A stretch of DNA of 64,000 bases from Macrostomum hystrix (taxonomy: Eukaryota > Animalia > Platyhelminthes): the NCBI GenBank assembly GCA_950097015.1, contig CATNEN010000001.1:5704001-5768000 (forward strand). The letters run 5' to 3'. Position numbers and translations under genes: made by a program. Shown piece by piece: positions 1 to 54,796 of this stretch; within the stretch, counting starts at the first letter, position 1; every line of letters begins with the position of its first letter. A model generated the notes under the pieces. That model saw only the letters and a list, made by a program, of their open reading frames with translations. It made no database searches and was not told the origin of the DNA.

Positions 1-330
1 TCATTGGGAATCTGATAAATGGGAATCTGATCATTGGGAATCTGACAAATTGGGAACCTGATAAATGGGAATCTGATAAATGGGAACCTGATCATTGGGA
101 ATCTGACAAATTGGGAACCTGATAAATGGGAATCTGATCATTGGGAATCTGATAAATGGGAATCTGATCATTGGGAATCTGACAAATTGGGAACCTGATA
201 AATGGGAATCTGATCATTGGGAATCTGACAAATTGGGAACCTGATAAATGGGAATCTGATCATTGGGAATCTGACAAATTGGGAACCTGATAAGTGGGAA
301 TCTGATAAATCGATCGGCCTGATAAATGGA
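1..330. repeat. Minisatellite of 15-16 bp units with core TGGGAA(T/C)CTGA, running off the window start
   Basis: Repeated variants TCATTGGGAATCTGA / CAAATTGGGAACCTGA / TAAATGGGAATCTGA, often in that order as a ~46 bp higher-order unit. Confidence 0.95.
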
Positions 331-1527: not shown

Positions 1528-3426
1528 TTATTTCTTGTCCGTGAAGAGTTGTGTCAATAGATGCCTTTGAGCAATGAAGGCTTGCAGAAAGTCGTTGATA
1601 GTCCATCCTGGCTTGATCTCGTCTAATTTGATGTCGCCAAAGGGTCGAAGGTTTTTTCTGTTGAATTTGACTCTGAGATCTTCCACATCGTACAGTTCGT
1701 CTAGGATAACTTGCGTTGTCGTGACATTGCTGAGCTTGCCTGCATTGTCTACTCTGTAGAGTTCATCATTTAAGGTGACGTAACTCGCTGCATCGGTGCA
1801 CGGTCTCGGAATTGCCGTTGACACAACGACATTGTTGACGATGTCTAGGAATCCTGTTATCTTCGTTCCTGCGAAATATGCTTCAATTCTGGGTTTATCG
1901 AAGCACGTTTCCGAATGGTTGGACGCTGACAGTGTGTAGTGCTCAATTGGGATGCACTTGTATATCAGCAGGTGTCCGTAGCCTGGGACTGCCAGAACAT
2001 TTTGGATTCCTCTAATCTTCGAAATGTCAATGTCGGATTGGCATAGTAGCTTTGCCTGGCGTAGTTGAGGCTGGTCTCATGCATTCGACATGTGAGCTTA
2101 ACCTTGTTCTTGTGTAGATGATTAAGCTCCTGATGCATTTGTGCTCCATTACAGCCATTTTTGCGGCTATTAGGCGTGCTGAAAGCATGTCTGGTCTTCC
2201 GATTTCTTGTTCTGTTGCCCTTCGCTGTCGTGTTTGAGTCTGGAAGGTGCCGTCGATTATCAGGTAAAATTCTTGGTCTGTTCTACTCGTCGGTTGTATG
2301 GGGATTCCTTGTTCCGACATGATGAGGTCCTTATTTGTATTCTTGCATCTAAGATTTAGTTTCTCTGGTCTTTTAGGAAAGGTAAGTGCTAGGTCACCTG
2401 TCTTTTCCATGAAGGTGTTTGAGTACAGATCTCCACATATCGTGATCGTGTGGTATTTGATGAACTTACAGTCCACCTGTGGTTGTACTTTCCAGACTAG
2501 GTTGTACTGGCGTTCCTTTTCTATTTCCTCGTATCTTGGGTCAGCTCGGTGTTCCACTTGGTGTCTGTAGCTCTTGTGGTATGTCGGTGTTAGCGGTAGT
2601 CGGCCAATTCTGGATCGGGAAATCTCGTTCATGTACCTTGGTGTTGAGCAGAAGCCTTCGCTTTACCTACAGTTGTCTAGTGGTAACTGTAACGATGTCA
2701 TTTTCTCAAATGGATTTTGGTAGAATGGTACATTTCTGATTAGGTAGAGCTGTTGCTGGTGACGTACTTGGGTTGTGTGGTTGAGTGTAGATGCACATAT
2801 GGTCCCCACACGTTGTTGTGTGTCTGATAAAGCTGTGATCCTCCAATGTTAATGTCTTGGTGTAGTTCTCCGTCTCTTGAAAAGAGTGTTTGATTCCATT
2901 GTACGCACTCTTCGTGAGTGACGGATTCTGCTCGTTGCCAGAGTCGTATGCGGTTCCATTGCATGTACCAGATCTTGTCTGTTTCCTCTCGATCCCGGAA
3001 GCAGACAATGCCTAGTTGTCGGTGCTGCTTGATGTTGGCTTTGTACATCTCGATCGTGACTGGCAGCGGGTTGGTTTGGTTCGTCTTGAAGTAGTTGCAT
3101 TTGATCTCGCTGGGCAGTTTGTAGATTGTTGGCGTGACTTTCGAGTCCTGAGGGCAAATTAGTGGTAGTTGCGAAGCTGTTGTCGCTGTTGCTACTAGCA
3201 GTATCGTGATGAAGAAGATCCATGTTGTTGGATACTTCTTATTCGCTCTCGTCCTTATTGGCCCTGGCACTTGGTCTTGCGCCGTGGTTGGCTCCTTGTC
3301 CTGTGTAATGGGGCTTTCTTCTTCTGCGCAGAAACACTCCCGCCACCCCATTATTTGGAGAGGGGTGTGATCCGCCACTTCCAGTGCTGCTTCATGTGCT
3401 GTTATAGATAGATCCGCGGGGCGCAC
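1528..3426 (-). pseudogene. env: Frameshifted envelope glycoprotein, class III fusogen type (herpes gB/chuvirus-like), of a Gypsy element; C-terminal TM not seen
   Basis: Signal-like WIFFITILLVATATTA, then a Cys-spaced ectodomain (LICPQ..IKC..IVC..EECVQW) in pieces 2740-3426, 2027-2632 and ~1528-2020. Across frameshifts it reads NPTLTFRRL/RGIQNVLAVPGYGHLLIYKCIPI...TCFDKP...GFLD...C, recalling the gB NPxxI..V.A...GD...V..C.PV helix. Confidence 0.7.
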
Positions 3427-6400
3427 GGTGTCGAATTTCTCCGCAGTGTACCAGCCTGTGTCCTCTAATTTTCGCTCTTTTTGGTTTATTTGCTTTCACA
3501 TTTGAAGCATGTGGATCGTGAAATCTGGAACTAACTGTTCCAAATTTATTTCCTTTTGGCTCGATTCGTTGATGTCAATGGCATTTGGCATATTTTCGAA
3601 CTTGTGTTGGCTGCTTGGGGCTGTTTCCTGCCATGATCTGCAGTTGTCTTGATCCTCTGTTGTTCGGTTCGTTGTTCCGCCTTTGTTGTTCTCTTCCTTG
3701 TCCTCCTGGTTGCCATCGGTCTCGGTAGTCTTCTCGTCGATAGTACATTCCTCGCTCTTGTCGAGGTCCCCATTGCTCCTGTTGTCGTTCTCGTCCGTAG
3801 TTTTTCTGCCGATCGTTCATCGGTCGCATTGGTCCTTGTTGTCTCCTCCATGGTCCCTGTAGTTGCTTCTGCCTACATTCTGCTGCTATGTGACCCTGCC
3901 TATTGCAGTAAAAGCATGTAATATTTCTCCTAAGTCTTTCTGCTTGAATCATGTTTGTCTGGTGTATCATGGGTTCACTAGCTTCCCACAGCATGCCTAT
4001 GCGGATGAGCTGTAATTCCTCTCTATCAATATTTTCTCTCAGGAGTCGTTCCCCTAGCGCTGGTTGGGCATTGTTGATGACTTGACTTACTTGACTTAGC
4101 TGCAGGGTGCTCCTCGAACCGGCGGACGCAGCGAGGAGGCGAAGGGGACCGCCCATTCCGCTAACCCCTGGCAAACCAGACGACCTCAGGAGAGGTGGTG
4201 TTGCTCAGGGTGGCCCGTCGGACTCGCCTGCAGCGTGGTCCTCCACACTGTCGGTGGGAAGACGTTGGCTCGCCTAGTATCCCGAAGGTACCGGGCAAGC
4301 TGAGGGATGCTCTCGGGCCTGCAAACTCTCGGGAGAGAGTTGGGTTAGGCCCAAGGTGTTCAAGCCTTGCCCTGGTGAAAACTGGGCAGTGGCAGATAAA
4401 GTGCTCGGCATTATGGCTGCCCGAGCTACAAAAGGTACATTTGTCCTCCAGGAGCTGGCCCTGGAGATAGGGATGCCAAAAAAACAGCCATGTCCTGAGA
4501 GGGCCATACTGAATGCGCGGAGATCTCTGCGGTTCAGCCTTAAGAGGGCTTTGCGCAGGCGGTGAGACGGACATGGGACCGCTGCCCTGGACTGCTTGCA
4601 GTTCTGGGTCTTGATCCATCTGTCCAGGTGCTGTGCCTCCATCCAGCGCTTCAGCTTGAGGTTGGTCACAGTGACGGGGATAGGAGCGCCAGGCTCTGGC
4701 CCCGCCAGGGTGCTGGCTGCTCCAGCTTTTGCGAGCTGGTCCGCCATCTCATTCCCTCGGAAGCCAGCGTGACCTGGGACTATTTGACCTCGTTGGCCCG
4801 CGCCAGCCCGTTGAGCTGGGTGTTGCAGTCCAAGGTGGTCTTAGAGCACCACCTTGCTGCGGTCGAGGGCCCGGAGGGCGGCTTGAATGTCGGAGTGGAA
4901 AATGATCTTCCGGTCAGTGACTGGCGCAACTCTGCTGCACATGAACTGGTGGCGAGCATCTCGTTCTGAAAAACGCTGGAGTTTTTCCCAGTGTGCTGGG
5001 AGTGAGTCCAGGCGACCTCTCCTCCCTTGTAGATACAGGCTCCGAATCCCGAGATTCCCTTCATCAGGGAGCCGTCGGTATAACAGTGGATTTCAGGGTC
5101 GGTCCAGCTGTCGTTTGCCTCCTGGCGAGGCTGAATTTCGACCTTGTACCTGTGGCTCAGGATCAGAGTGGCGGGTATTGCATCGGAGAGGATGTGGAGC
5201 CCTTCGCACTCGCCCAGAATCTTGAGGCACAGATCGGAGTGGGGAGTGAAAGAGCGCTTTTTGAAGGCTCTCGAGTAATTGAAAGTCACGCCGGCATCCA
5301 TAAGGCGCCTGGTGCTCTTCGCGGCCTCTCCCTTGACGAAGATGTCCAAAGGAGTGGCTCCCAGGAAGGCGTTCATGTCTTCGAAGGGAGTGGAGGGTGA
5401 GGCGCCTATGGTCATGCGACAGGCTCTGCCCTGCACCCTCTAGGCGCTAGCCCAGACGAGGCTGGCGTACCAGATCGAAGGTCTGATGATAGTTGTGTAG
5501 ATCCACCAGAGCTTCTGGGGGGTGAGGCCCCAAGTGGTGCCAACGGCTCGCCTGACTTGCGCCAGTATCGCCAAGGCCTTCTTGGTTTTGAAACGGAGGT
5601 AGTGACTCCAGTTTAGCCTATGGTTCAAGAAAGGCAACGTGTTTGCTTGCTCATGGCGATGTCCTTGCCGTAGAGAGTGAGGGGTTTCATGGTCCAACGC
5701 AGCTTGCTGGTAAGCATGATCGCCACGGTCTTGGACTCGGAGAGTCTGAGCCTGCAGCGGGTCACCCAGCTTTCAGCTCTGTTGATGAAACCCTCGATGA
5801 GGTTCCTAGTGGTGTCCGCTGAAGGTCCCGCGCAGGTGGCGGTCACATCGTCAGCGTATCCCACTTTTTAGACCGGATCTGGCTGAGCATCCTCAAGCAG
5901 CTCATCCATGACAAGATTCCAAAGGAGAGGAGTAAGAACCCCGCCCTGCGGCCCCCTTTTTGGACTGGCGCTGAAAGCGAGTGCCCATTGAGGTTGGCCA
6001 CCACAGAGCGGTGCTGGATCATGTACATGTACTCGGTCGGCTGGGCCTCCTTCGGCCTAGGCCGGGAGTTCGACGCGTCGGTGGCGTCCACGGCCCGTAG
6101 CTTGGCCTTGAGGCGTCTGCGGCGGGCTGCTCCGGACGTGCTGCTCAGCTTGGCGTTAGGCGGCTCGTTGGGCCCGACGCTGGGGTGGGGCAGGTCCGGT
6201 GTGGCTTGGTCCTGCGGTGGTCGTGATGTTGACCGGAGAGGGCCCTTCGCGAGGCGTGGGTACCTCCTCGACCTCCATCTGATTCTTTAAATTTTGAGAA
6301 GCCATAACTCTCCGAAAATCGCTGGAATGCAAAACAAAGAAGAATAAAGGACTGCTAATGGCCGGTTTGCTCCCCGGACCTCCTAGCCCCTCGGCGCGGT

Positions 6401-6443
6401 GAGACCTTAGGCATTGTAGAGCACAAAAAGGCAGTGCCGGGCC

Positions 6444-6716
6444 CGCAGACTGGCTGCGTACCCTGTGATACCTTTGAGGTCGAAGGGTGACACCTTTACC
6501 TCAGAGCTGTGGCCAGAGGCACTTGATGGCGCACAGGTACGCGATGTTGCGGACTGACCCGCATACCCTGTTAAGGTCAAAGGGTGGCACCTTGCCCTCA
6601 GAGCCGTAGCCAGAGGTACCTGATCACGCACAGGTGGGCAAACGCTGCGGACTGGCCGCATACCCTGTTAAGGTCAAAGGGTGACACCTTTCCCTCCAGC
6701 CAGGGCTAGAGGTACC
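6444..6716 (-). repeat. Three ~96-97 nt structured tandem repeats in the LINE 5' UTR
   Basis: Units start at 6716, 6620 and 6523. Each has CCUC..GAGG, AGGU..ACCCU..ACCU..AGGGU and a terminal hairpin. Confidence 0.85.
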
Positions 6717-6746
6717 CAGTTCGGCCACAGTCATCCAGCGCTGTTG

Positions 6747-6972
6747 CCCATTTTGTCCGGCTGCCCTAGGGTCAGCCTTGAACACTCGCGAGACGTGTAC
6801 CCATGGGTCAGCTGACGGGAAAGCGTGGAGGGATTCATGTACCCGAAGGCACAGGGCTCCTTCCTGCAAAGCCTGCTCAAAAAACGACTGCATGTGTGAG
6901 GCATCGCAGACCTTAGCCCGTGGGCCTGGACTGACTCATACCTCACAGGCGCTGTGTCCCGCCCGTGCGAGC
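6747..6972 (-). ncRNA. HDV-like self-cleaving ribozyme at the LINE 5' end, with a long J1/2 insert
   Basis: P1 GCUCGC(6972-6967)/GCGAGU(6789-6784) with G1-U wobble; P2 CCCAU/AUGGG; P3 GGG/CUC; L3 UACACGU; P1.1 AC/GU; P4 GGCUG..CAGCC; J4/2 CAAA with C at 6755. G1 coincides with the TSD boundary. Confidence 0.75.
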
Positions 6973-8366
6973 CATTGTTGATGCATTATGAGATTTTGCT
7001 CTCTGTCCAGCATTCTAACCCTCTCTCTAGCTAGAATTTCCGCTTGGTTGGGGGCTGGGTGGTTGGGGTCAGGGGGTTGGGTCTGGTGCAGTCCCTTAAT
7101 AAGCTGCCGAATATCTTCCACATATGTCAGAAATGACTCAGTTAACAGCATTTTCCTATTGTGCAACTTATGCAGTAACACGGAACGATTTGTTCCGCAT
7201 CTATCGAATTGCTGTCTTAGCTGGACTACTAATGCTGGGTAGTTCTGCTGCGTCTGCGCGTCTAACTTGCCGTAGATCTCCCTAGCCGTTCCTTCTAGCA
7301 GGGTGGGTAATTAGCCTTTTCCTGCGGAGGCAGCTGATACTCGCGACAAAATAAGTCGAAGTGGTCCAAAAAGGTGGTAAAGCACTTCCGCAGATTAAAA
7401 GTTCCCGTAGTCTCCTTAATATCCCTATGCACTGACGGATTACGACGAGCTGCCATGTTATCAATCTGGTAGAACGGTAGGTCAAGATCTGGGTCTATGT
7501 GGAGCGCGTCTTCCAGTGTAGTTTACCTAAAGTGTGACTGTCTTCTTTTGACTGATATGCGGGCTTTTGTGTTTGTAGTAACTTGTACCTTTGTGCACTT
7601 GGTTGCTTTGTCACTTACTTTATCTTGCGGTGTGTTTCTCTCTGCTCGCTTGTTTTGTGCACTATTTCTGCGCTAGTGTTGATAGCTTTTTCCTTCGTGT
7701 GCTATTTGCACTCTGGCGTATACGTTTGTCATTTATCACTGAATTCCGAAGTTCTGATAAACAAAATACTAATTTAGCTGCTTCTACTCGTAGTTCGGTG
7801 CTTTATGAGCTTTGTAGTACTTTTACAGTAGCTTGATCAGGGCTGCTGTGCGAAAGATGACTTAGAAAGGGCGAGATCATCAATTGAAGAGTGGGTTTTC
7901 TCACAAAGGAAAACTCTACTCCTCACTTCTAGATTTTATTGAATCTAGGTAACTAGGTCCCCGTAGAAATGTACTACTTAGAAATTGCGCAATATATCTA
8001 TTAACTGAAGAGTCTGCCTACCTTTGTCTTTCCGCGAGGGAGGCTTTGGAAGTAGAGTCTGGCGCCGCTGAGCTTTCAGTACAAGTTCTTCTCGATACGG
8101 TCGACCTGGGTTGCGCTGCGAATAGCTTAATGAAGGTTGGAGTCTCAGGTAGACTCAAGTACTCAACTGGCGTATCAAAGTCCTACACTTGCAGCGGCTT
8201 ACTGCCACGCGCCGTTATACTAGATATATCTACCCGACGCGCGGTTGTTCCCCGTGAAAAACTATTTGGCCTTCGGTCTCTGAAACTAATTCGAGAGGAC
8301 CGGGTAACCTCCGAGTTCCTCCTGCAGTTCCTCGAAACTCGGGCTGACCTGATAATCCCCGCTAGC

Positions 8367-13775: not shown

Positions 13776-14497
13776 TGATATCGTGTGCTGAGGGGATTCA
13801 AAATTTCTAGAAGATAGGCGTCTAAATGTCCTATCAAAAGCATCGGCGATAACAGGAATGATATACATTGCAACGAGGGAAGTTTAAACTACCTGTCTCA
13901 AATATACTGTATTAAGATTTCTTACTTCAATAAATTCTGCACAGCAATTCTTTCAGGGTAAGAAATACCCCAAAGGGACTAGATTTCCTTTTCACAATTT
14001 ACAAATCACAGCAACGCCGGATCTTGATTGAGTTGTATACTTGTATAGCTGGGGTTCAATATATATTTTGTGCTCAATAAAACTACATATTATACTTTAT
14101 TAAGCTGTTTTGTGAGTTTAAATATCAAGTGGGTGTGTTTGATAAAAGGTTTTTTTAGAGATGTGCTGTAGTAACGCATATTTATTGAATGTTTATAAAA
14201 ATATTCTACAACATTGGCATTTTTTGTCATAGTCGTCAAAATAGCATCCAATCATAGCTTTGCTTTTCGACAGGAAATGCAGCAAAAGAAAGTGAAGGAA
14301 CTGGTACTTTAAGAGTAAACAGTTAAGTATATCAATTGGCTTTAGCTTGAATAGATCCAGACGTTTAAACGCATAGTTTTAAGGGGATGAAAGTATGGGA
14401 CCAGTGCTACTTACTTACTCACTACTGGCGGGGGGCGAGACGCCGCGAATAGGCCGCGAGGCCCCTATCGCAACCCCAAGGTAAAAGGAAGGTGGCC

Positions 14498-17400
14498 TCA
14501 GCCTTGGGGGTGCGCCCACCCCACGCCAGCAGTCGGCAGGTTCGCCGGGGAGGCGTCGGCGACCTTCATCCGGCCGGTGTCACGGACGAAGGCGCGAAGG
14601 TCTCGGATGTTGTCCGGAGTCGTCAGTTCGTCCATCCCTTGCGGGTGGCCGAGGTGCCAGTTGCGCGCCTTTTCGAAGTAGGGGCAGAATGTCACGTGAT
14701 GTGCAGCGGTTTCCTTACCTATGCCACAGAAGGGACAGGTGGGGGAGCAGCCAGTTTGTAGCGAAATGTGTCTCTGGAAGAAGCCATGGCCCGTGATGAC
14801 CATGCACATCTCCCTGAGGTCAGTTCTATTAAGTGAAATCAAAAAGTCAGAGACTTTCCGGTTAATGATCGGCATGGCCATTCGGGTCTGCCTATAGTCG
14901 GTGCAGCTACTCCAGTGGAGCTGGTGTTGCTGATTTAGCCACCTGTCAACAGTGCGGTTGATGAGGGATTTAGGTACCGGTACCCTGATCGGGCGGTGGT
15001 TATTGTCCGGGTTGCTGCCATCCTTGGCGAGTTTGTCCGCGAGTTCGTTGCCAAGGATGTTGCTGTGGCCTGGGATCCAGACTAGGCTGATCCTGTTAAG
15101 GACCGCGAGTGACTGCAGGTCTCGGTGGCAGTCAGAGACCGTCCGAGTGGAGAGTTTGACGGCAGACAGAGCCTTGAGGGCGGCTTGACTGTCAGAATAG
15201 ATGCAGATGTTGAATCTGCTGACGTTGGCATTGAGGTGTTTGGCGCATTGGTTAATGGCGTAGATTTCGGCTTGGAAGACCGACGTGTTCTCACCAAGGT
15301 GAAGGCTCTCCTGAAGGAGCGCCTTACCCTCATGGAAGATGGCAATGCCTGCTCCGGCTAGGCCGTTGCTCAGCGAGCCATCGGTAAAGCAGTGGATACC
15401 CTGGCTGCGCTGGTTTACGCCGACGTCCAGCTGAGTGCTACCACGGTCAGGGATGACGGCGCTAAAACCCCTCCTGAGGATGAGGGAGGGAGGCTGGCTA
15501 TCCACATCGTTGGGGTCGATGTGGATGTGTGCAAGGTCACGGCGGACATAGTCCAGATGCGGAATGAGAGATTTGTCAGGAATAAATCCGGTTGGCGTAT
15601 TCTTAATGGATTTATCGCAGATAAGCCGGTAGGCGCACTTCATAGCCTCCGCCCTAATAAACAAATAGAGCGGAGGCATGTTTAGGATAGTATTTAGGCC
15701 CTCGTATGGGGTGGAGGGGTACGCACCTGCAATGGCACGGCAGATGCTGCCCTGCAGCTGGTAGAGTCGGTCGCGGGCGGTTTTCTGTTCCAGTACGCTG
15801 GACCAGATGAGGCTCGCATACGTAATACTCGGTCTAATGATACCGGTGTAGATCCAGCGGACCGTTCTCGGGGTGAGGCCCCAGGTCGGTCCAATGGCCC
15901 TACGAACTTGGGCGAAACAGCGTTTAGCTCGTCCGATGATGTTTCCAAGGTGTTTTGTCCAGCGCAGATCGTGCGTGAGCGTTACACCTATGTACTTGGT
16001 TTCCTTTTCGAAAGGGATGTTCCTACCATAGATGGTGAGGTTTTGCATGTCCCACTTATGTTTTCGAGTGAAGACAATTGCTACCGTCTTGGTGACGCTG
16101 ATTTTGAGGCCATGCTGGGTGGCCCAGTTTCCTGCCTTGTTGGCGAATTGCTGTAGCAGGTTACGCAGGGTGCTGGTGTCTGGCCCGCTGACCACCGCGG
16201 CGACGTCATCGGCATAGCCGGCCCTGGTGACACTGCTAGGTACATCAGCCGTCAGGAGCTCGTCCATGACGAGGTTCCAGAGCAGCGGGGTGAGCACACC
16301 GCCCTGGGCGCCACCTTTCATCACTGCGCGGGTGCAGGTGATGTTCATGAGCGTGGAGGTAACGGATCTGTTGCGGATCATGAAGTCAATCCAGCGAATT
16401 ATGCTGGGTCTGACGCCTCTGTCTGAAAGGGTGTCTCTGAAGGAGCCAAAGTTGACGTTGTCAAAGGCCCCTTCGATATCAACAAACAGCCCGAGAGCGA
16501 GTTGCTTGCTAAGGATGGCTTTCTCAATAGCAGAAGTAATAACATGGAGCGCGTGCTCGGTAGTTTTACCAGGTTGGAAAGCGAACTGGTACTTACTAAT
16601 GGGGGCTGACCGCAGGTCGCAGTCTCGGAGCCTCCATAGAATGAGCCTTTCCATCAGCTTGACGCAGAAGGAGGTGAGGCTAATGGGGCGGAAAGATTTC
16701 ACGTTGGTATAGTCGCCCTTCGCAGGTTTGGGGATGAAGACAACCCTGGAGGTTCTCCAGGTGGTAGGTATGTAGCCTGTAACAAAACAGTCAATGATCA
16801 ATTTTGAGAGAGCTTCAGAGAAACTCTGAAGTTTAAGCGCCTCCTGTAGGATACAGGGGCTGATCTTGTCCGGGCCTGGGGCCTTAAAAGGCTTGAAGGA
16901 GTCAGCCGCTAGCCTCAGCAGGCTCGGCGAGGCGCATTGCTGAAAGAGGTCGCGATCATGTGGTCTGTGGTCGTTCACCACATTTTCGGGGTTTTCAACC
17001 TGTGGAAAACAGGTAGAGAATAACAGATTTAAGGATTCTTCTGCGGTGCTGGTGTAGTTACCGTCCAGATGCAGGAGAGAGTTGCACTGAGCGAGGTTGT
17101 CGTGCCTGAGTGACCTGACCAGCCACGCCGTAGGGTGCTGACCCTCCAGGCTGGCACAGTAGGCCTTCCAGGTGTTCTTCTTCGCCCGTTGGATGCTGCT
17201 TTTGTAGATCCTTAGGGCAGAGTGGTAGTTCTCCCAGTCCACCGGGGTGTTGCTGCTGTGCGCAAGGCGTTGCAGCCGGCGCGAGGTCTTTTTCAAGCGG
17301 GTGAGCTCGGGGTTCCACCAGGGCGAGTATTTCTTCCTGTGCTTTACCTTGGGGGCGTTTTCACGAATGGCGGTATGTAACAGGTTAGTGAGAGTATTGC

Positions 17401-18298
17401 AGCGGTTTTCGATGCTGGGCAGATCAGTTCCCTGCAGGGCCTCGGTTGTCTCGGCCAGGAGGTTGCTTAGGTCTCTGCGGAACCCGGGCCAATCAGCCTT
17501 CTTCAGGTTGGGGCGGTCGGCGCAGGGCAGGCGGGATCCTTCGGCGGAGATTCGGTACTGAATGTACGAGTGATCCGAGAGCGAGGGTATGTCGTCCCTG
17601 ACCATCCAGTTCTGGACATGGTTCAGGGCGTTACTAGAGGCCAAGGTTAGGTCTATAACATCACGTCTGTTAGAAATAACAAAGGTGGGCTTTCTGCCTC
17701 TGTTGCAGATATGCATGGTAGAGGCGTTAATGAAATCAATGAGCAGGTCACCTCTCCTGTTTGTGTCACTGCTGGACCATGCAGTGTTGTGGGCATTGGC
17801 ATCACAGCTAATGATAAGCTTCCTGTTCTCCAGGTTGCAGAAGTCAGCCAGCTCTTGCAAGCGTGGTGGCGGGACCTCCTCCTGGATGTCTAGGTAGGCA
17901 GACGCCAGAATTACGTCGAAAGCAGCGAAGGTACAAATGTCCTTAGAGCAGTACATGGGCATCATGGTGACTGGTATGTCACTTTTCACGAGGGCAATAG
18001 CCCTAGGAGTTTCATCGGTACAATAGTAAAGGGTTTGGTACCCGTTTGGCAAACAGGCCGGCTTGCCTCTGCGGGTATATGGTTCCTGAATGAGGTAGAT
18101 ATCAACGTCTTTTCCATCGAAGACGCCGGTTAGATTATTGGAGGCTGCAGTTGCATGATGCAGGTTGATCTGGACAATGTGCAGATTTAGCGCGTTACCA
18201 GTAAACGAAGAAAGTGTATTACTGGTAGTATTGCGTGTTGAAAGATCATCACTGGGCTGGCCCGTGGGACACGCCCTCAGACGATCACGCCTCATCAT
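14498..18298 (-). CDS. LINE ORF2: APE endonuclease, RT, RNase H and CCHC
   Basis: Uninterrupted 1266 aa ORF with QINLHH, LIQEP, CDANAH, IDLTL, SDH; FRPISL, QGGVLTPLLWN, YADD; FTDGS, AE, SDS, WIPGH, NELAD; CPFC..ETAAHHVTFCP. Confidence 0.97.
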   Translation of the reverse strand: MMRRDRLRACPTGQPSDDLSTRNTTSNTLSSFTGNALNLHIVQINLHHATAASNNLTGVFDGKDVDIYLIQEPYTRRGKPACLPNGYQTLYYCTDETPRAIALVKSDIPVTMMPMYCSKDICTFAAFDVILASAYLDIQEEVPPPRLQELADFCNLENRKLIISCDANAHNTAWSSSDTNRRGDLLIDFINASTMHICNRGRKPTFVISNRRDVIDLTLASSNALNHVQNWMVRDDIPSLSDHSYIQYRISAEGSRLPCADRPNLKKADWPGFRRDLSNLLAETTEALQGTDLPSIENRCNTLTNLLHTAIRENAPKVKHRKKYSPWWNPELTRLKKTSRRLQRLAHSSNTPVDWENYHSALRIYKSSIQRAKKNTWKAYCASLEGQHPTAWLVRSLRHDNLAQCNSLLHLDGNYTSTAEESLNLLFSTCFPQVENPENVVNDHRPHDRDLFQQCASPSLLRLAADSFKPFKAPGPDKISPCILQEALKLQSFSEALSKLIIDCFVTGYIPTTWRTSRVVFIPKPAKGDYTNVKSFRPISLTSFCVKLMERLILWRLRDCDLRSAPISKYQFAFQPGKTTEHALHVITSAIEKAILSKQLALGLFVDIEGAFDNVNFGSFRDTLSDRGVRPSIIRWIDFMIRNRSVTSTLMNITCTRAVMKGGAQGGVLTPLLWNLVMDELLTADVPSSVTRAGYADDVAAVVSGPDTSTLRNLLQQFANKAGNWATQHGLKISVTKTVAIVFTRKHKWDMQNLTIYGRNIPFEKETKYIGVTLTHDLRWTKHLGNIIGRAKRCFAQVRRAIGPTWGLTPRTVRWIYTGIIRPSITYASLIWSSVLEQKTARDRLYQLQGSICRAIAGAYPSTPYEGLNTILNMPPLYLFIRAEAMKCAYRLICDKSIKNTPTGFIPDKSLIPHLDYVRRDLAHIHIDPNDVDSQPPSLILRRGFSAVIPDRGSTQLDVGVNQRSQGIHCFTDGSLSNGLAGAGIAIFHEGKALLQESLHLGENTSVFQAEIYAINQCAKHLNANVSRFNICIYSDSQAALKALSAVKLSTRTVSDCHRDLQSLAVLNRISLVWIPGHSNILGNELADKLAKDGSNPDNNHRPIRVPVPKSLINRTVDRWLNQQHQLHWSSCTDYRQTRMAMPIINRKVSDFLISLNRTDLREMCMVITGHGFFQRHISLQTGCSPTCPFCGIGKETAAHHVTFCPYFEKARNWHLGHPQGMDELTTPDNIRDLRAFVRDTGRMKVADASPANLPTAGVGWAHPQG

Positions 18299-18328
18299 GT
18301 TTCAGATGGCGTGATGCTGAGAACATGC

Positions 18329-18832
18329 TTACGCATCGTTCTCTGAGCCATCCGAGCTCTCGGATTCCCCTCGGCGTCGCTCGCCGCCGGTGTGCCTGCG
18401 CCTGGACAGGATGTGGAAGACGACCTTCCACGCTCCCATGTAGACGGCGAACTCGCTCCTCTGCAGGGCGGCCTCCCATTCGGCAGACAGTCCCATGTAG
18501 AGCGTCTTGCCGGCTGCATCCTTGGCGGGGACCTCCTTGAAGGCCCGGATTCCGTCCTGCGGTAGGTCGGGGTGTTTGCTGAGGAGTCGCGCACGGATCT
18601 CCTCGATAGTTCTCGGGCCCGAGTAGAAGGCTCGGTAACGCTTGCACGGTGGCGGGGGGCGGGCTCGCTCAACGACGATCTTGGGAAGGGCCAAGTCGTC
18701 GAGGTCCCACTCGATACACTGGAGGCAGGCGAGCGCCTTCTCCAGGTAAGCCTCGTCCTTAAAGGTGAGGATGATATTGCCGTTGGCGTAGCGGATCGAC
18801 TCGATCTGAATGTCGAGTGTGTCATTGTCCCA
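18329..18832 (-). CDS. LINE ORF1 C-terminal portion (5'-truncated; DUF4780-like by pattern)
   Basis: Frame is open from the truncation point ([15 protein letters not shown]...) to the stop just upstream of ORF2. Confidence 0.75.
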
Positions 18833-19179
18833 GAGGGACCAGTGCTAGATCAGAACGCTCTACAGGCTTGCGACTATTCACTACTTAATCTATCAAATTT
18901 TTGTGTATGCAAGCTCTATAAATCTGTAACGACTAAAAATAGCTTTTATAAATAATATTGATTAAGTACAGGAAGGCATGTATTGGCACTGGCAAAACGT
19001 TTAGATACGGTTCCAAATTCCATTGACTCCTAAAAATATGGTGTGCTCATTAACACAGACTTTCTCATTGTAAAACAGCATAAAATCTCAATGTGACTAG
19101 GAGGCCATTGACATAAATCACGCGACAATGCATCTACACTGACAATTTTCTGATCGCCACACACAGGTAGACGCTCTAT

Positions 19180-19800
19180 AAGTGTCTTCCAGAATGAGAT
19201 CCTTGCCATCAGCTCCTGCGCTGCAGAACTTTGTGTCAAGAGACTTGTGGCAGACAAATCGTCATCCACTCTGACAGTCAGTCAAAGCACTCTGCGAGTC
19301 GTACACCAACTCGCGGACAGTCTCTGACTGTGTCCGACATCTCAACCTGCCTGGCTGGTGAAAACACTGTCAGACTTGTTTGGATTCCCGGTCACAGGGG
19401 CTTCCCGGTCACGGTCACGTGCAACCAAGCTTGCAGACAGACAGCCATTCCAAACAAGGAGGCAGCAGCTCTTTCATGGGACCCTCGCCGGCAGCCCCCC
19501 GTCCCAACCAATGTCTTTGCAGTGGGTACTTCGTGGGTCCCTGCAGAGTGAGCTCTGCCCTCTTTGTGGCCTTGATAACGAAGATGCCCAGTACTTCGTC
19601 TGCAATTACCCGGCCCTCAACAGAGACAGGCTCTGCTACCTCGGTCCAAACCCATCCATCGATGATGTTTGCAGATCCGAGAACATCCCTCGTCTCGTCC
19701 GATTCCTGCGGGCAACCCGTCTTGCTGATTTCTTCCCAGAAGAACACGCTGCAGAGAGGACCCTCTGACGTCCCTGGAGCTAATTCAAGTCAATTCGGTC
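19180..19800 (+). mobile_element. Decayed 3' fragment of a Loa-type LINE
   Basis: SVFQNEILAISSCA, IHSDSQ, VWIPGH and CPLC motifs with frameshifts; short repeat tail. Confidence 0.8.
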
Positions 19801-44413: not shown

Positions 44414-47400
44414 ATGGCTTCTGGTAAGACCAATTGGTCCTGTTGAATCAAAGGCAGAGAAATACTAAACGTATTAGTTATAAAAAATTATCATACCTGT
44501 AGTAAGTAGTAATAATAGTAACGATAATATTCGCCGGGAGCTGTGGGCACAGCGTATCACTTAACGACAGTCGACCCGCAGTCAGCCAGGAGGCGATTCT
44601 GCCATTCCGCTGACCACTATAAGTATATACATGCACAATGATACCGTACGCAGGCAGGTGTACACTCATACAGGGGTGTACATGGAGCCCCCAAGCTTTC
44701 TCACCGCGGCAGTGGATAATTTAGCCACGACACGGATTCCATCTCAGCGACGTCGGTGTGAAAGTCAAGCTCAAACGCTCCACCACTCCACCGCTCCCTG
44801 GTTATTTGATGATAGAGACGAAAATCGAAAAAAGCTTTTTGCATTTTACGAAATGAGAGCTTTTTAGTTGCAAGATTCAATCTTTTTTCTAGGCCTGTTT
44901 TCTAAAATGGTTTTTCCCAAAAAGCACTTTTGTTCAGCAGAAATTCGAAATCAATCTACGAAACTCCAAACAGAATTCGGTAAAAGCATTCTCGAGTCGC
45001 ATTTCCCACACGTGGCAGCCACTCGAGTGACTATGCTGAATTCGGGTTCCTTCGGTCTGTCACCGAAGTCTGTCATCGACAAGAAATTGCAGTAAGTTTA
45101 GTATGTGCCAACCCTTTATTCCTATTAATATGTTTTTTAGCTAAAAAGTAACAGTGCACCAATCATGCCAGATACATCCAAGATTTCGAAAGCTACGGCG
45201 ACAACTACGTTCGCCAGGGTCTTCTGCGTCAAACTGCAGACAGTGTGAAGGCTATCGCCGACCTTCTCGGTCTTCGGGCGGAGCAGTGCGTCCTAGTTGA
45301 CAACGTCACCGTTGGCGTGTCAACCCTTCTTGACTGCGTGGCGAAGCCAAGTGACAGAATTCTGGTTAACTCATGGACCTACGGCTCTGTTAAGATGGCT
45401 GCGGAGTCCGTTGGAGAAAACTGCCTTGCAGAGACTGCAGGCGACACCAGGGTAGTTGAGATGGGCATTCGAGTGCCAGTGGCATCGGAGGAAGAAGTTA
45501 TTGACATAGTCAGAGACACTCTTGACAAGCACACGGACATTCGGATTGCTATTTTCGGTTAGAGTAAACTCCTGATTTGATTTGCACCATATTTTTTCTG
45601 AAGCCCTAAAAGCAGCTCACGCAGACATTGACTAGCAAATAGTTCTCAAAGCGCATTGCTGCTTATCTACTTGACCGAAATATGAACCCGGTGCAATCTT
45701 GATTGATCAAATCATTAGTTTCTACAGCTAATTGCAGACGGGAAAGGATTGTACAGCATACTAGTTTCTCAGCTAATTGCAGACGGGAAAGGATTGTACA
45801 GCATACTAGTTTCTCAGCTAATTGCAGACGGGAAAGGATTGTACAGCATACTAGTTTCTCAGCTAATTGCAGACGGGAAAGGATTGTACAGCATACTAGT
45901 TTCTCAGCTAATTGCAGACGGGAAAGGATTGTACAACATACTAGTTTATCAGCTAATTGCAGACGGGAAAGGATTGTACAGCATACTAGTTTCTCAGCTA
46001 ATTGCAGACGGGAAAGGATTGTACAGCATACTAGTTTCTCAGCTAATTGCAGACGGGAAAGGATTGTACAGCATACTAGTTTCTCAGCTAATTGCAGACG
46101 GGAAAGGATTGTACAGCATACTAGTTTCTCAGCTAATTGCAGACGGGAAAGGATTGTACAGCATACTAGTTTCTCAGCTATTCTATGCAGGTGCAATTCT
46201 ACCCGATACAATCAGATGTTCTAAATGTTCTAAACACAGACCACATCACGAGCTCAACGGCCTGCCTGATGCCAGTGCGGCAGCTGACTGAGGTGTGCCG
46301 CAGCCGAGACATTCTAGTCATCATCGACGGTGCGCATGCGATTGGCCAGGTGCCCGAGCTCGATATTGAAGCCATTGGCGCAGACTTCTACGTAGGCAAT
46401 CTGCACAAATGGTGCTTCGCACCCAAATCTGCCGCCTTGCTGTGGGCGGACAAGACGAAAATCGACCGCCTGAGGCCATCTGTGGTGTCCTGGCTCGCAC
46501 AAGATCCTATGGCGTCCATGCGGTTCGCTTTCTTGGGCACTCGAGACACTAGCAGCGCCTGTGCCGTCAGCGAGGCGGTCCGTTTTGTGCGCGACACCTG
46601 CGGTGGGCTGGTGAGATTTTTCGCTGCGGCGAAAAATTGATTAATACGAGCCGTAGTTCCGTGTTATTATCATACTGCAAGTCTGTGAGAGTTGTAATAG
46701 CCACGCACAAATGAAATCCCTGTAATTATTACCCATTATTGCGTTAATTTCCTGCAGGCGTAGATTATTTTTTGCTTGGTTATTAAAAAGCATACTGATT
46801 ACAACTTTGAATGTTTTAATTAGTTCAACAATGAGCTACATGACACCTATGCTGTTGGCTCGGTTACATTGTAGCTGTGTGGATTTTTGCATCTGCAGAA
46901 CTTCCTCTTAATTACAGGCTTTCAGGTAGTCGCCGTAAATATATATTAGTTGCAAAACAGTAGCTATAATAAAAATGGTTTTCTATTCGCTTAAGACAAG
47001 GATGTATAAGGAATGCTGCAATCTTTTTAACTTCTCGATGATCTGAGCAATGCGGAAATTAAAGGCTTTTACTGTCACAAAACAATGCATACACGGGACA
47101 AAAAACGGCTTTGAACAATGCTTGTTCCATTTGTTGAAAAAAGTCTGACTGAAAACAGAGACATGTGTTCAGCTGTTTGATCGTGTGTGACGTCAATGCA
47201 CTCGGAAGAAATGGACTTTTACTGTTTATATAGATTGTGACGTGCACTTTTCCTCCACTAAAGCGATATTCCTAGAAATTATTATTTTTCGAAAGATGTA
47301 AAGTTAAGGATCTCATGAAATTCACAATTCTCCCTATACGTAATAAACGTAAACCTAAACGTAATAGTTGTGTCAAAATTTTACTTTCTTTGATGGAATC

Positions 47401-49623
47401 TATTGCTAACTAACTTTTATTTTACCGTTTTCAGAACCGATTGTATTTAAAAAGTATTTGGTTTTGTTTGAAGCCAGCTAGTTAAACAAAGTTAGTGACT
47501 GACAGTCAAGTAGTTGGTTGGTCAGAAACCCAACAGGATTTTTACTCTGGACCAACATCAACTCGGTATTTATTCCTCTTTTTTGCTAAATTTACTAGGC
47601 TTCAAATAATGGAGGCCCGTGTTTTTTGCTCTGGCAAGGGGAACAGGAGAGGCTGAGGAATAGTTGAAGGATAAATCAAAGCGTGAATGGCTTCCGTGCG
47701 GCTCGCAAGGTCGCATGCTGGTCATTCTTCTGTTTCCTCTTCTGCCCTGCCGTGCAATCTTTAGACTGGCATGACGCACTTCGTTTTTTGGGCATCTTAT
47801 CCATCTGTGTTTCTGTCTTTTGCCAATCAAGCAGTCTCAAAGATCCTAGCTACTTGATTTGATCGATTTCTTCTTTTAAAATACGAACTCGTAGAGAGTT
47901 CTCTAACAGTACGAGTACAAATACATCAAGCGTGTTTTGCACCCTATGACAATCACGCTTCACAGCTAATTCGCTGACAAATTGCTCAATTTCAGAGTCC
48001 CATTCATGCTTACTGCGCTGGTCTCGCTGATGAGGCATCGAGTTATCTAGCAGCGGCCTGGAGTTCTGGCAAGTTGCCGATTCCTGCTTCAATGGAGGCG
48101 CCGTACATGCGGCTTGTCGCTTTGCCACAGCATCTGCAGTGTCCACAAATTCTTCAAATGGTGAGAATCTGTGGTCACCTCGAATCGATATTTTATCTAG
48201 TAGTGTCCGGCATAGAACAAAGTACATCTGACACTGTGCACGTTAGTTAGATGTCTGAATGATCTGACACTGTTGTGATAGCTTCAGATAATTCTCTGTA
48301 CTTATCTGAACATAGGTAAACCCGAATTAACTATCTAGTTTATTCATTTAACAAAGATGAACGGAACAAAACATAAAATCTCACACATTGTACACTCTCA
48401 CACATAGTACACTCTCACACATTGTACACTCCCATACAGCGTACACTCCACACAGTGTACACTCCCACAAAGTAAACACTCTCACACAGTGTACACTCTC
48501 ACAAAGTAAATACTCTCACACAGTGTACACTCCCACAAAGTAAACACTCTCACACAGTGTACACTCTCACAAAGTAAATACTCTCACACAGTGTACACTC
48601 TCACAAAGTAAATACTCTCACACAGTGTACACTCTCACAAAGTAAATACTCTCACACAGTGTACACTCTCGCAAAGTAAATACTCTCACACAGTGTACAC
48701 TCTCACAAAGTAAATACTCTCACACAGTGTACACTCTCACAAAGTAAATACTCTCACACAGTGTACACTCTCACAAAGTAAATACTCTCACACAGTGTAC
48801 ACTCTCACAAAGTAAATACTCTCACACAGTGTACACTCTCACACAGTAAATACTCTCACACACTGTACACTCTCACAAAGTAAATACTCTCACACAGTGT
48901 ACACTCTCACAAGTAAATACTCTCACACAGTGTACACTCTCACACAGTGTACACTCTCACACAATGTACACTCTCACAAGTAAATACTCTCACACAGTGT
49001 ACACTCTCACAAAGAAAACACTCTCAAGCTGTGAAAGACACTGAAAACTTGCTAGTGCGCCAATCACCAGTAAGTACTCGTATTGATTTATATAACGTAG
49101 GTTTTAGCAACTGGTATAATTATGTCAAATCTGTCTTCAAATAGTTGCCATCGTGGCAGTGTCGTATTCGGAAGCAGCCTGTACCATTCTTACCCTTTTA
49201 GTGAGCTAGGTAGCTGTGTATAGCTTGGGCCTAAAAATCCTAGGATATTGAATTTCACCTTCTCTAGAGCAGCTCCAAATCTTACCTTTCATGTTTTTGC
49301 TTTATTTCCAAGGCAAGCAAGATGAGTGTCCTCGATATGAAAAAATAATTTTGAATCTAAATAATTTTCGTTTTTTGCATTTTTGACCGATGTCTTAAAA
49401 CAGTCAATCGAGCTGGCTCTCATTTTAGACCAAGGAATATCGACTGATGAGTCCAATGTGGAATTTTCTGCTTAACAAGCTGAAGATGGACCTGCTGCTT
49501 TTGAACATTCAGGGCAAGCTCTACATCCGCATCTCGTGTTCCGTGATTGTCGGCATGACTGATATTCGACAGCTGGCAGAGGCAATGCTGAAGCTCACCA
49601 AAGAAGACTTTTTGAGTCCTTAG
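44414..49623 (+). CDS. PLP-dependent class V aminotransferase-fold enzyme (Egt2 / L-cysteine desulfhydrase / isopenicillin N epimerase-like), ~441 aa
   Basis: Exons 44414-44423 (tentative), 44893-45091, 45172-45557, 46240-46610, 47996-48160 and 49429-49623 join in frame. Motifs LNSGSFG, DHITS, IDGAHAIG, GNLHKW (PLP Lys), GTRD, LYIRIS. Confidence 0.9.
44500..44797 (-). mobile_element. SINE family B, diverged and deleted copy
   Basis: Shares the CCCGCAGTCAGCCAGGAGGCGATTCTGCC block and tRNA-like head with the other copies. Confidence 0.7.
45715..46181. repeat. Intronic 45 bp minisatellite, ~10 near-identical copies
   Basis: Unit CAGCTAATTGCAGACGGGAAAGGATTGTACAGCATACTAGTTTCT. Confidence 0.97.
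48380..49026. repeat. Intronic minisatellite, 34 bp dimer of 17 bp units
   Basis: CTCTCACACAGTGTACA alternating with CTCTCACAAAGTAAATA. Confidence 0.95.
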
Positions 49624-53117: not shown

Positions 53118-54796
53118 TTTCTCCGAACTATTCGACCCGAAGCGAAAGAGAGCACAGTTTTCTAGATTTTTCGATGAATTTATACACGCGGCAGATCCCG
53201 CAGCAATCTTGGACTTCAACTCCTGGCCTGTTCTAGTTAGCAGTATGTTTGTCCAAAGCAAATCTTTCCTCCGATAACATATTACAATATGCAGTCTCAT
53301 GATTTTCATCATGTTCTTTGCCGACAATCAGCACGCTATAAATAACGATACCGAACGATTTTTTCTTGGCTTTTTCTAGGCTGTTGGGCTGGCGAGCTGT
53401 CAACCAGCTGATAAGAAATTAAGGAATTAAATCAATGACCTGCACCTGAAAATTTCCGAGTATAAAAATACGAAAAATTACGTTGTATCAATTGTAAAAC
53501 GTCGTTTTCTGTCACACAAGATCTGACTAAAAAGGGAATTAAATGTTATTTAACAGTAGATAGATCCCAAACAGAATGATCGATTTTCGTGAAAGTCCAC
53601 GTATGGTTAAAAATGTATGGCCTTTACGATGAACTAACTTTTAAAACCGTCCGACGTCAGCATCGTCCAGACATTCAGCTAACATTGTCTTTAACAAATT
53701 TTTAGTAATAGTCAACACAATATATTCAGCAGTAACAACCGACATTGTTTGAATGATAAAACTTTGTAAGCAGAAAAATTATGCATAAATTGGTTGCTCT
53801 TGCCACCCGAAAACCTGACGAAAATCGTTGAATATCTCGACGATGCCGATGTTTTGTGATTCTGAAAGTTATTTCATCTGATAGAGCGGAAAAGTTAAGC
53901 CTGTGTTCTGGACTTTCATGACGATTGGCTGAATAAAAAAGGTGGTATTTGAGATACCACCGTAGTCTTTCTACCGTTACGCTCAATCATTTAGCAAGCT
54001 ATTTAGCTGGAGTAAAAAACTACACAGAAAATATAGTCTTTACTTTCTGAGTGATCATATTCGAATACGCTGTAGTAAAAAACGCAGAGCTCAATGCCTT
54101 CCGATTTCATCACTGGTTTGCACTATTTCGTCATACAAAGCAGCAGAAAATAGCAGTTGGCTATTTTTTTGCCGTCGCTTTGATAACACTCGTTCGAGTG
54201 CTAGAAACACCAAACTTAACCGGTTTGTTTGCACACCCCCTTCCTAGACGACGCACTCTAAATTTCTTTGTCATGTTTGAGTAATAGTAGGTTAGGATTT
54301 TCTCAACATTAACATTACAACGGCGTGTAATGTTAACGGCGGCCTGATAGCGCGAGCTCCCGCTGTAATAACATTAACTCTAAAAAATTCTTAAAAAACA
54401 TTGCTATGTGCTGCGCGATTGGCAGAGTGAGAAGTCGGGGCGAAGCCCCCACTTCCTATAATAAATAAAAATGTTTGACTAAGCTATTCCTTGAATGTGG
54501 TCTGCTTAACTTTAGTCTATGAACTAGAGCGACATTAATCCGCGAAAGGACATTAACGCGCATGCTACGTGCGTCCAAATGTCACCAAAAGTACACAGTA
54601 ATTAATGATACAATTAGGCAATATTTTTTCAGTTTTTATTTTGTCTATGGTTAAGAAGAAGTATAACGCAGAAGACCTAAAATGGCTAAAGATACTTGAC
54701 TATTGAATTTATAGTCCGATAGATGCGCAGCAAGAATTTATAAGTAATATTATAGCTAAATAAATACCAATTCTAGCTTAAAAGAATCTTAAAGGC

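What the first reader, a model, noticed from the sequence alone, without database searches (positions are those of the whole stretch)
6747..6972. HDV-like ribozyme with a non-canonical AC/GU P1.1, exactly at the LINE 5' boundary
Seen: the complete nested double-pseudoknot order P1-J1/2-P2-P3-L3-P3'-P1'-J1/4-P4-J4/2-P2' is present. The G1-U wobble falls on the first base inside the TSD, and the candidate catalytic C is at 6755. L3 is UACACGU and J1/4 is GU, so the usual CC/GG P1.1 is replaced by a compensatory AC/GU. P1 is 6 bp, and J1/2 is ~160 nt closed by ACGGG/CCCGU. Established: HDV-like ribozymes process the 5' ends of several non-LTR clades. Inference: this is a variant that strict descriptors would miss.
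Basis: partly seen in the sequence, partly recalled or inferred. Interest (0 to 1): 0.75.

Follow-up and report, generated by a model that had tools for sequence, protein, structure and literature searches.

The report
Delta-type ribozyme heading a flatworm LINE
A worn copy of a jumping gene, likely from a flatworm, begins exactly where a predicted hepatitis-delta-type RNA fold would cut itself free of longer transcripts; its core differs by one letter from the common human/sea-urchin type, so this is a small variant of a known device whose cutting is untested.

Summary
The fold is real. All HDV-like elements are present on the minus strand (G1 = 6972, candidate catalytic C = 6755). It is the only descriptor hit in 64 kb (0 of 100 shuffles with a two-pair P1.1, 1 of 100 relaxed). 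G1 is the first base inside an exact 11-bp TSD, and other copies in four studies start at 6972/6973 with unrelated flanks. Of 22 sites where relatives differ, 1 breaks a predicted pair (9.8 expected).

Two corrections. J1/2 is predicted to close with GGCGGGA/UCCCGUC, not ACGGG/CCCGU. AC/GU is better read as the CPEB3/sea-urchin core (UC/GU) with one change, U21 to A, than as a double swap from CC/GG; no double-sided covariation was seen. Non-CC/GG P1.1 helices are already crystallised, and one published descriptor accepts this core.

The element is an internally deleted, frameshifted RT-RNase H LINE (LOA-like, not firmly placed), likely from a Macrostomum-like flatworm. This copy carries seven private changes and predicted misfolds, so it may cleave poorly. 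Cleavage is untested. The scan has noted HDV-headed retroelements in at least six other genomes, but no look-alike of this sequence. Verdict: minor new variant of a known kind.

The parts
6973..6983 (-). 5' copy of the 11-bp target site duplication
   Evidence: exact match to 4069-4079, only two places in the window
6967..6972 (-). P1 5' strand; G6972 = G1, predicted cleavage between 6973 and 6972; first base of the element
   Evidence: relatives' homology ends at 6972/6973
6808..6966 (-). J1/2 domain, 159 nt: closing helix P1.2 (6963-6957 with 6820-6814, continued by 6953-6950 with 6825-6822) and a junction with three arms (6947-6895, 6892-6865, 6864-6827, the last capped by UUCG)
   Evidence: fold -66.3 kcal/mol, z -2.4, 4 of 300 shuffles as low; relatives' differences mostly keep or add pairs
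6803..6807 (-). P2 5' strand; possible extension 6812-6809 with 6743-6740 across a 1x3 loop (predicted)
6790..6802 (-). P3 (6802-6800 / 6792-6790) and L3 (6799-6793: U20 A21 C22 A23 C24 G25 U26 in CPEB3 numbering). The G.U at 6801/6791 is G-C in relatives
6784..6789 (-). P1 3' strand
6782..6783 (-). J1/4 (G, U): predicted P1.1 pairs C6797-G6783 and A6798-U6782
   Evidence: complementarity in the sequence; no difference listed in relatives; no covariation
6756..6781 (-). P4 hairpin; the three minor differences in relatives fall in its bulge and loop
6752..6755 (-). J4/2 with candidate general-acid C6755; CAAA here, CAGA in relatives, both fit CNRA
6747..6751 (-). P2 3' strand
6477..6696 (.). 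97-bp tandem repeat (2.3 copies) in the 5' UTR behind the ribozyme
6029..6305 (-). likely start of ORF1 (ATG at 6305), frameshifted, cut off by an internal deletion near 6028 with a doubled TACATG at the joint
   Evidence: ORF1 identity is inferred from position only
4258..6028 (-). frameshifted ORF2 remnant: second half of RT, RNase H, C-terminal Cys/His motif
   Evidence: six tblastn pieces, 52-65% identical to residues 607-1213 of P0006; RNase H piece E 4.5e-05
4080..4098 (-). 3' tail, two TAAGTCAAG units
4069..4079 (-). 3' copy of the TSD

Best explanation
The first 226 bases of this LINE family form a predicted HDV-like ribozyme that likely cuts between the host base and G6972, which would release the element's RNA from read-through transcripts and would explain why copies start at this base. 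Shown: the element's ends, TSD, the shared 5' start, the pairing potential and its conservation. Inferred from HDV/CPEB3 knowledge: C6755 acts as general acid with a Mg2+ ion; U6799.G6794 forms the reverse wobble; P1.1 is C-G plus A-U, i.e. the CPEB3/sea-urchin core with its weak U.U pair turned into A-U; the 159-nt J1/2 folds as its own domain whose closing helix holds P1 and P2 together as in mosquito drz-Agam-2-1. The window copy is an aged, non-autonomous (internally deleted, frameshifted) member, with seven private changes in the ribozyme, and is likely slower than the family form.
For: One hit in 64 kb, 0 and 1 of 100 shuffles, coinciding to the base with the TSD edge. Contig depth falls to the flank level or zero past 6972 in all 7 runs that cover that end; loose ends with unrelated flanks at 6972 in X2, X3/X4, X5, X11 and at 6973 in X9. 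22 variable sites: 5 keep a pair, 6 add one, 10 in loops, 1 breaks; random placement breaks 9.8 on average and never 1 or fewer in 100,000 trials. Relatives have a full G-C P3. 6-bp P1, 5-bp P2 and J1/2 of hundreds of bases are within the R2 range. Structured J1/2 activates HDV-like ribozymes (PMC4908430). G:C and C:G replace the CPEB3 U:U pair with retained activity (PMC9901934), so that position accepts Watson-Crick pairs. R2, R4, L1Tc, RTE and baggins elements carry such 5' ribozymes.
Against: No cleavage data. No double-sided change in any helix. No Rfam match at E up to 10. A competing register pairs G6783 with C6755 and is 2.4 kcal/mol more stable than native P4 by nearest-neighbour rules (-14.0 against -11.6, P1.1 not counted); these letters are the same in relatives. 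An 8-nt direct repeat (6812 and 6776) lets the P2 and P4 strands swap, and the pseudoknot-free optimum (-92.3) is not the native fold (best native subsets -86.5 and -87.9). With this copy's upstream flank the native subset lies 3.6-6.3 kcal/mol above the optimum, the TSD pairing with arm B across the cut site in 4 of 5 lengths; P2 (duplex -5.2, or -10.5 extended) is not counted there. No such ribozyme was found in 37 related metagenome LINE loci, most of which lack 5' ends. A shared 5' start is also expected from an internal promoter.
Confidence: 0.83

Rival explanations
1. The fold is of HDV descent but sits mostly in an off state: J1/4 pairs with the catalytic C in an extended P4, so cleavage is slow or switched, and the 5' end is set mainly by an internal promoter while the structure serves translation or protein binding.
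For: Alternative G6783-C6755 register is favoured by 2.4 kcal/mol and appears in the constrained folds; CPEB3 crystals show J1/4 sequestered by J4/2 including C57 (bioRxiv 2022.09.22.508989); L1Tc's 5' end is both promoter and ribozyme (abstract start).
Against: All catalytic letters (G1.U, U20, C24, G25, C75, A78 equivalents) are kept in the family; nearest-neighbour energies omit P1.1, coaxial stacking and Mg2+.
Confidence: 0.12
2. The ribozyme is active but P1.1 has one pair (C-G); A6798 and U6782 do not pair and their complementarity is incidental.
For: No covariation at this pair; natural P1.1 helices work with U:U or C:U at one position; U6782 can also stack on P4.
Against: A and U face each other at the position where CPEB3 accepts Watson-Crick swaps and rejects purine mismatches; two divergent sister contigs of X9 keep UAC at the start of L3 while other loop letters differ (loose ends; one contig each).
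Confidence: 0.2
3. A chance arrangement of complementary words in a G+C-rich 5' UTR with no ribozyme ancestry.
For: Whole-region folding z is only -0.89; no Rfam hit; the descriptor was written after seeing the site.
Against: Shuffle rate 0-1 of 100 windows, base-exact agreement with the element's end, six of seven L3 letters and J1/4 identical to CPEB3, pair-keeping variation.
Confidence: 0.03

Closest known systems
CPEB3 ribozyme (mammals) and sea-urchin HDV-like ribozymes (bioRxiv 10.1101/2022.09.22.508989, passages; PMC4836649, passages; PMC4870747 supplement parts 3-4)
   Same: 7-nt L3 with C22 and the A23-U26 palindrome, J1/4 = G37 U38, no J1.1/4 stretch, CNRA-type J4/2
   Different: A instead of U at position 21 (A-U instead of U.U, no U-turn uridine); 6-bp P1; 159-nt J1/2 domain; heads a LINE rather than lying in an intron
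drz-Agam-2-1 of Anopheles (PMC4908430, first quarter read)
   Same: large structured J1/2 with a P1.2 closing helix, short linkers, possibly extended P2
   Different: here P1.2 leads to a three-armed junction; core P2 is 5 bp with only a predicted interrupted extension, not 12 bp; activity unmeasured
5' HDV-like ribozymes of non-LTR retrotransposons: R2, R4/Dong, L1Tc/ingi, RTE, baggins (PMC3774820 passages and section 16; PMC4035085 passages; PMC6765202 passages; Ruminski et al. 2011 itself not held, not read)
   Same: G1 at the element's first base, conserved downstream and varied upstream sequence, 6-bp P1, long J1/2, internally deleted derivatives
   Different: AC/GU P1.1 not met in the passages read; likely flatworm host (the search for Macrostomum plus ribozyme gave no relevant paper); APE-RT-RNase H lineage near Lian-Aa1-named proteins
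C. briggsae and Ackermannviridae HDV ribozymes (PMC13635239, passages)
   Same: natural P1.1 that departs from two G-C pairs
   Different: theirs are U:A plus C:U or U:U; this one is C-G plus A-U, fully Watson-Crick

Membership tests
HDV-like ribozymes | nested double-pseudoknot order with pairable P1, P2, P3, P4 | tested here: met
HDV-like ribozymes | G1.U (or R.Y) first pair of a 6-7 bp P1 | tested here: met
   G6972.U6784, 6 bp; range from PMC3774820 section 16
HDV-like ribozymes | L3 with U20, C24, G25 and closing pyrimidine | tested here: met
   U6799, C6795, G6794, U6793; letters only, the reverse wobble itself is not tested
HDV-like ribozymes | P1.1 between L3 and J1/4 | tested here: met
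   C-G and A-U can form and are unchanged in relatives; formation is not shown
HDV-like ribozymes | J4/2 CNRA with catalytic C before P2' | tested here: met
   CAAA here, CAGA in relatives; motif
HDV-like ribozymes | double-sided covariation of core helices | tested here: inconclusive
   relatives at 80% or more show only one-sided changes; no distant homologous ribozymes obtained
HDV-like ribozymes | Mg2+- and C75-dependent self-cleavage before G1 | not testable with these tools
   needs a bench assay
Rfam HDV-clan models (a profile, not the family definition) | cmscan match | tested here: not met
   0 matches at E up to 10 in 3800-7400
Published RNArobo descriptors hdv-looseP4 / hdv-stemP4 (search filters) | L3 TYYHCG(N)Y, J1/2 up to 51 nt, P2 6 bp or more | tested here: not met
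   read: A at L3 position 2, J1/2 159 nt, P2 5 bp; the 'mispairs' descriptor accepts L3 and J1/4 but limits J1/2 to 15 nt; RNArobo itself was not run
Retrotransposon 5' ribozymes | cleavage site equals the element's 5' end across insertions | tested here: met
   (DNA boundary; RNA ends not seen)
LOA clade non-LTR elements | APE-RT-RNase H ORF2 | tested here: inconclusive
   RT and RNase H remnants present, APE deleted in this copy; complete in relatives P0001 and P0006
LOA clade non-LTR elements | RT groups with LOA/Lian/baggins references | tested here: inconclusive
   quick tree: RT piece sister to P0006 (97), in a clade with Macrostomum proteins (99), joined at 93 with the group holding a UniRef 'Lian-aa1'-named and an 'R1'-named protein; no curated references, careful search unfinished; that Lian and baggins are LOA clade is recalled

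The most novel reading that the evidence does not exclude
This family is a natural CPEB3-type core that keeps the ACGU dimer palindrome but has replaced the U-turn uridine by an A that locks P1.1, and balances that with a conserved off-register in which J1/4 captures the catalytic C: a switchable ribozyme that would directly test whether U21 drives the inactive anticodon-like CPEB3 state, and a first member of a purine-21 class that pyrimidine-only descriptors have skipped in LOA-like LINEs of many animals.
Probability: 0.15. Interest if true: 0.6.

Novelty: new variant of a known kind. Interest (0 to 1): 0.32.

Why it matters
It adds a likely flatworm, RNase H-bearing LINE lineage to the retrotransposons headed by HDV-like ribozymes and shows a natural, family-wide purine at L3 position 21 that the common descriptors exclude. 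For specialists it is a ready natural test of the proposal that U21 causes the inactive CPEB3 loop state. It does not change what is known about mechanism or function, and P1.1 flexibility is documented.

Tried and rejected
No own genome is held, so copies could be seen only through Logan contigs. Rfam at E up to 10: nothing. Core pattern in viral contigs: 0. P0001 in viral contigs: no relative. Alignment A1 in metagenome and viral contigs gave 159 loci; a descriptor with J1/2 up to 600 nt found 0 hits in the 37 LINE loci on either strand and 2 A+T-rich hits in 122 other loci; a looser scored scan of the upstream parts of 26 of the 37 gave best sense scores 9-16 against 21 for the focal site, no better than antisense; few of these loci hold a full 5' end, so this says nothing about the clade. 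The neighbouring LINE at 14410-18834 is 5'-truncated and has no ribozyme. No RNA holder listed; X11 is only guessed to be RNA and is not used as evidence of expression. The ACGGG/CCCGU register was rejected. The idea that G6973 belongs to the element was rejected: it lies in both TSD copies and other flanks have other letters there. Ruminski 2011 is not held. The term U21A has 0 occurrences in the 25 listed of 129 papers; single-mutant values for CPEB3 position 21 were not found in the main texts of PMC9901934, PMC8233481 or PMC7026644; their supplements were listed for two but not read, and heat-map figures are not held. ESM Atlas and cluster look-ups gave no clade name. The 'strict' mode was my recalled form and differs from the published one; the site fails both.

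Full report
Observation. On the minus strand the order P1 (6972-6967), J1/2 (159 nt), P2 (6807-6803), P3-L3-P3' (6802-6790), P1' (6789-6784), J1/4 (6783-6782), P4 (6781-6756), J4/2 (C6755 AAA) and P2' (6751-6747) is present as described. A descriptor written for this check finds one site in both strands of the 64-kb window, this one; 0 of 100 dinucleotide shuffles hit with a two-pair P1.1, 1 of 100 with one pair. The descriptor was written after seeing the site, so the stronger argument is position: G6972 is the first base inside an exact 11-bp duplication (6983-6973 and 4079-4069) that occurs nowhere else in the window. Rfam gives no match at E up to 10, and plain folding of the region is unremarkable (z -0.89), as expected for a pseudoknot.

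The element. It spans 4080-6972 (2,893 bp): ribozyme, a 97-bp tandem repeat, a likely ORF1 start at 6305, an internal deletion near 6028, then six frameshifted pieces 52-65% identical to residues 607-1213 of the APE-RT-RNase H protein P0006, and a TAAGTCAAG tail. It cannot encode its own machinery. A related LINE in the window has an intact ORF2 that is 82% identical to a Macrostomum lignano UniRef protein, so the host is likely a Macrostomum-like flatworm (inference). A quick tree of 43 RT rows puts the focal piece with P0006 (97) and the Macrostomum proteins (99), next to a group holding 'Lian-aa1'- and 'R1'-named proteins (93); the careful search did not finish and no curated references were used, so 'LOA-like' is a lead.

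Other copies. No genome is held. Eight of the 13 listed runs were laid, all contigs, from four studies plus a sediment run that covered only 37 bases; X3 and X4 look like one data set. Depth drops past 6972 in all 7 runs that reach it (X1 from 9,048 in the last bin to 87; X2 55 to 3.8; the others to 0). Loose ends with unrelated flanks lie behind 6972 in X2 (1 contig), X3/X4 (2), X5 (2) and X11 (1), and behind 6973 in X9 (1); the only listed contigs that run on (X1 record 8, X2 record 16) carry this same insertion with no difference. Table 7 is cut (50 rows not shown).

Structure conservation. 22 single-base differences fall in 6747-6972 (I left out 6702, 6722, 6733 and the indels at 6727-6729, which lie outside). 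Judged one by one against the core helices and the predicted J1/2 fold: 5 keep a pair, 6 add one beside a helix, 10 lie in loops, 1 breaks a weak pair (p 0.47). Random placement of the same changes breaks 9.8 on average and never 1 or fewer in 100,000 trials; keep-plus-add reaches 11 in 0.3%. Caveats: the fold came from this copy, differences near contig ends are not listed, and two of the 'add' calls (6913, 6914) are minor and mechanical. Seven differences are fixed or nearly fixed in relatives (6753, 6791, 6821, 6837, 6840, 6868, 6893), so they are this copy's own decay; at 6791 the family has a full G-C P3. No difference is listed in P1', L3 or J1/4; X3 record 19 spans them and its five differences are all accounted for elsewhere. 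No double-sided change was seen, so covariation is not shown.

J1/2 folded alone gives -66.3 kcal/mol (z -2.4; 4 of 300 shuffles as low) with closing helix 6963-6957 / 6820-6814 at probability 0.95-1.0, while ACGGG/CCCGU has about 0; the family letter at 6821 adds a pair to the first register. On P1.1: CPEB3 has L3 U20 U21 C22 A23 C24 G25 U26 with G37 U38 (bioRxiv 2022.09.22.508989, passages), and sea-urchin ribozymes show the same loop and junction (PMC4870747 supplement). This core is that type with U21 changed to A. In CPEB3, G:C and C:G at this position support activity and purine mismatches do not (PMC9901934, passage; the A-U value is not in the text). Natural P1.1 helices of U:A plus C:U or U:U are crystallised and fast (PMC13635239, passages), and earlier descriptors were already called too restrictive for P1.1 (PMC4035085, passage). 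Published descriptors with TYYHCG(N)Y, J1/2 up to 51 nt and a 6-bp P2 would miss this site for three reasons; the 'mispairs' descriptor (TNCNCGY, GN) accepts the core but not the long J1/2. I did not meet a natural AC/GU P1.1 in searches or in the passages read; Ruminski 2011, the main survey, is not held, and unread supplements and figures may hold one.

Mechanism. Inferred from HDV and CPEB3 work: C6755 protonates the 5' leaving group of G6972 with Mg2+ activating the 2'-OH of the upstream host base. The cut frees the element RNA from a read-through transcript, and target-primed reverse transcription to that end gives insertions that all start at G1, as described for R2, L1Tc, RTE and baggins elements. 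The J1/2 domain likely works like the P1.2 of drz-Agam-2-1, which speeds cleavage by holding P1 and P2 together (PMC4908430, first quarter); linkers here are 3 nt and 6 nt, or 1 nt if P2 extends.

Results against. An alternative register pairs G6783 with C6755 and beats native P4 by 2.4 kcal/mol before P1.1 and tertiary contacts are counted; CPEB3 crystals show a similar capture. An 8-nt direct repeat allows P2/P4 strand swapping. With 10-100 nt of this copy's flank the pseudoknot-free native subset is 3.6-6.3 kcal/mol above the optimum. These models cannot score pseudoknots, so they warn that this copy may be slow rather than show it. No homologous ribozyme was found in 37 related metagenome LINE loci, few of which have a 5' end. 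A fixed start would also follow from an internal promoter.

Earlier notes of the scan: no look-alike by sequence, none in this genome; 10 findings in at least 6 other genomes describe HDV-headed retroelements. They are unchecked and did not change my reading.

Verdict. A real, family-conserved HDV-like fold at a LINE 5' end; a known device with one unusual core letter and a four-way J1/2 domain. New variant of a known kind, interest 0.32.

Noticed in passing
window 14410-18834 (-): A second, related LINE with an intact 1267-aa APE-RT-RNase H frame, a 13-bp TSD (18835-18847 / 14397-14409) and a TAAG-repeat tail; 5'-truncated inside ORF1. Its protein is 82% identical to a Macrostomum lignano UniRef entry.
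   Followed up: partly
window 6477-6696: 97-bp tandem repeat in the 5' UTR; summed contig depth over it is several times that over the ribozyme in X1-X4, and loose ends show further units, so other copies may hold longer arrays or the unit is shared with another repeat.
   Followed up: partly
window 6727-6729: Relatives carry about 12 more bases here; by eye they complete a hairpin right behind P2' that this copy has lost.
   Followed up: no
window 6693-6879: Single contigs in X1-X4 skip 32-178 bases here, i.e. copies that lost part or all of the ribozyme core (table 5).
   Followed up: no
run X9, loose ends at 6787 and 6790: Two divergent sister contigs (81-85% alike over P4-P2') read as 8-nt L3 loops that still begin UAC; one contig each, depth 9.5 and 3.9.
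   Followed up: partly
window 3575-4078 and from 6973 upward (-): The LINE interrupts a gag-like frame with a CCHC zinc knuckle (Pfam E 4e-05), likely an LTR retroelement; ORFs at 1528-3495 behind it have no Pfam match.
   Followed up: partly
window 19154-19744 (+): A third, decayed RNase H / 3' fragment of the same LINE group on the opposite strand.
   Followed up: no
window 50170-53327 (-): ORFs matching the amiloride-sensitive sodium channel family (DEG/ENaC-like) in long uninterrupted pieces.
   Followed up: no
window 5-310, 45716-46180, 48379-49026, 58831-58965: Minisatellite arrays with 15-, 45-, 34- and 13-bp units.
   Followed up: no
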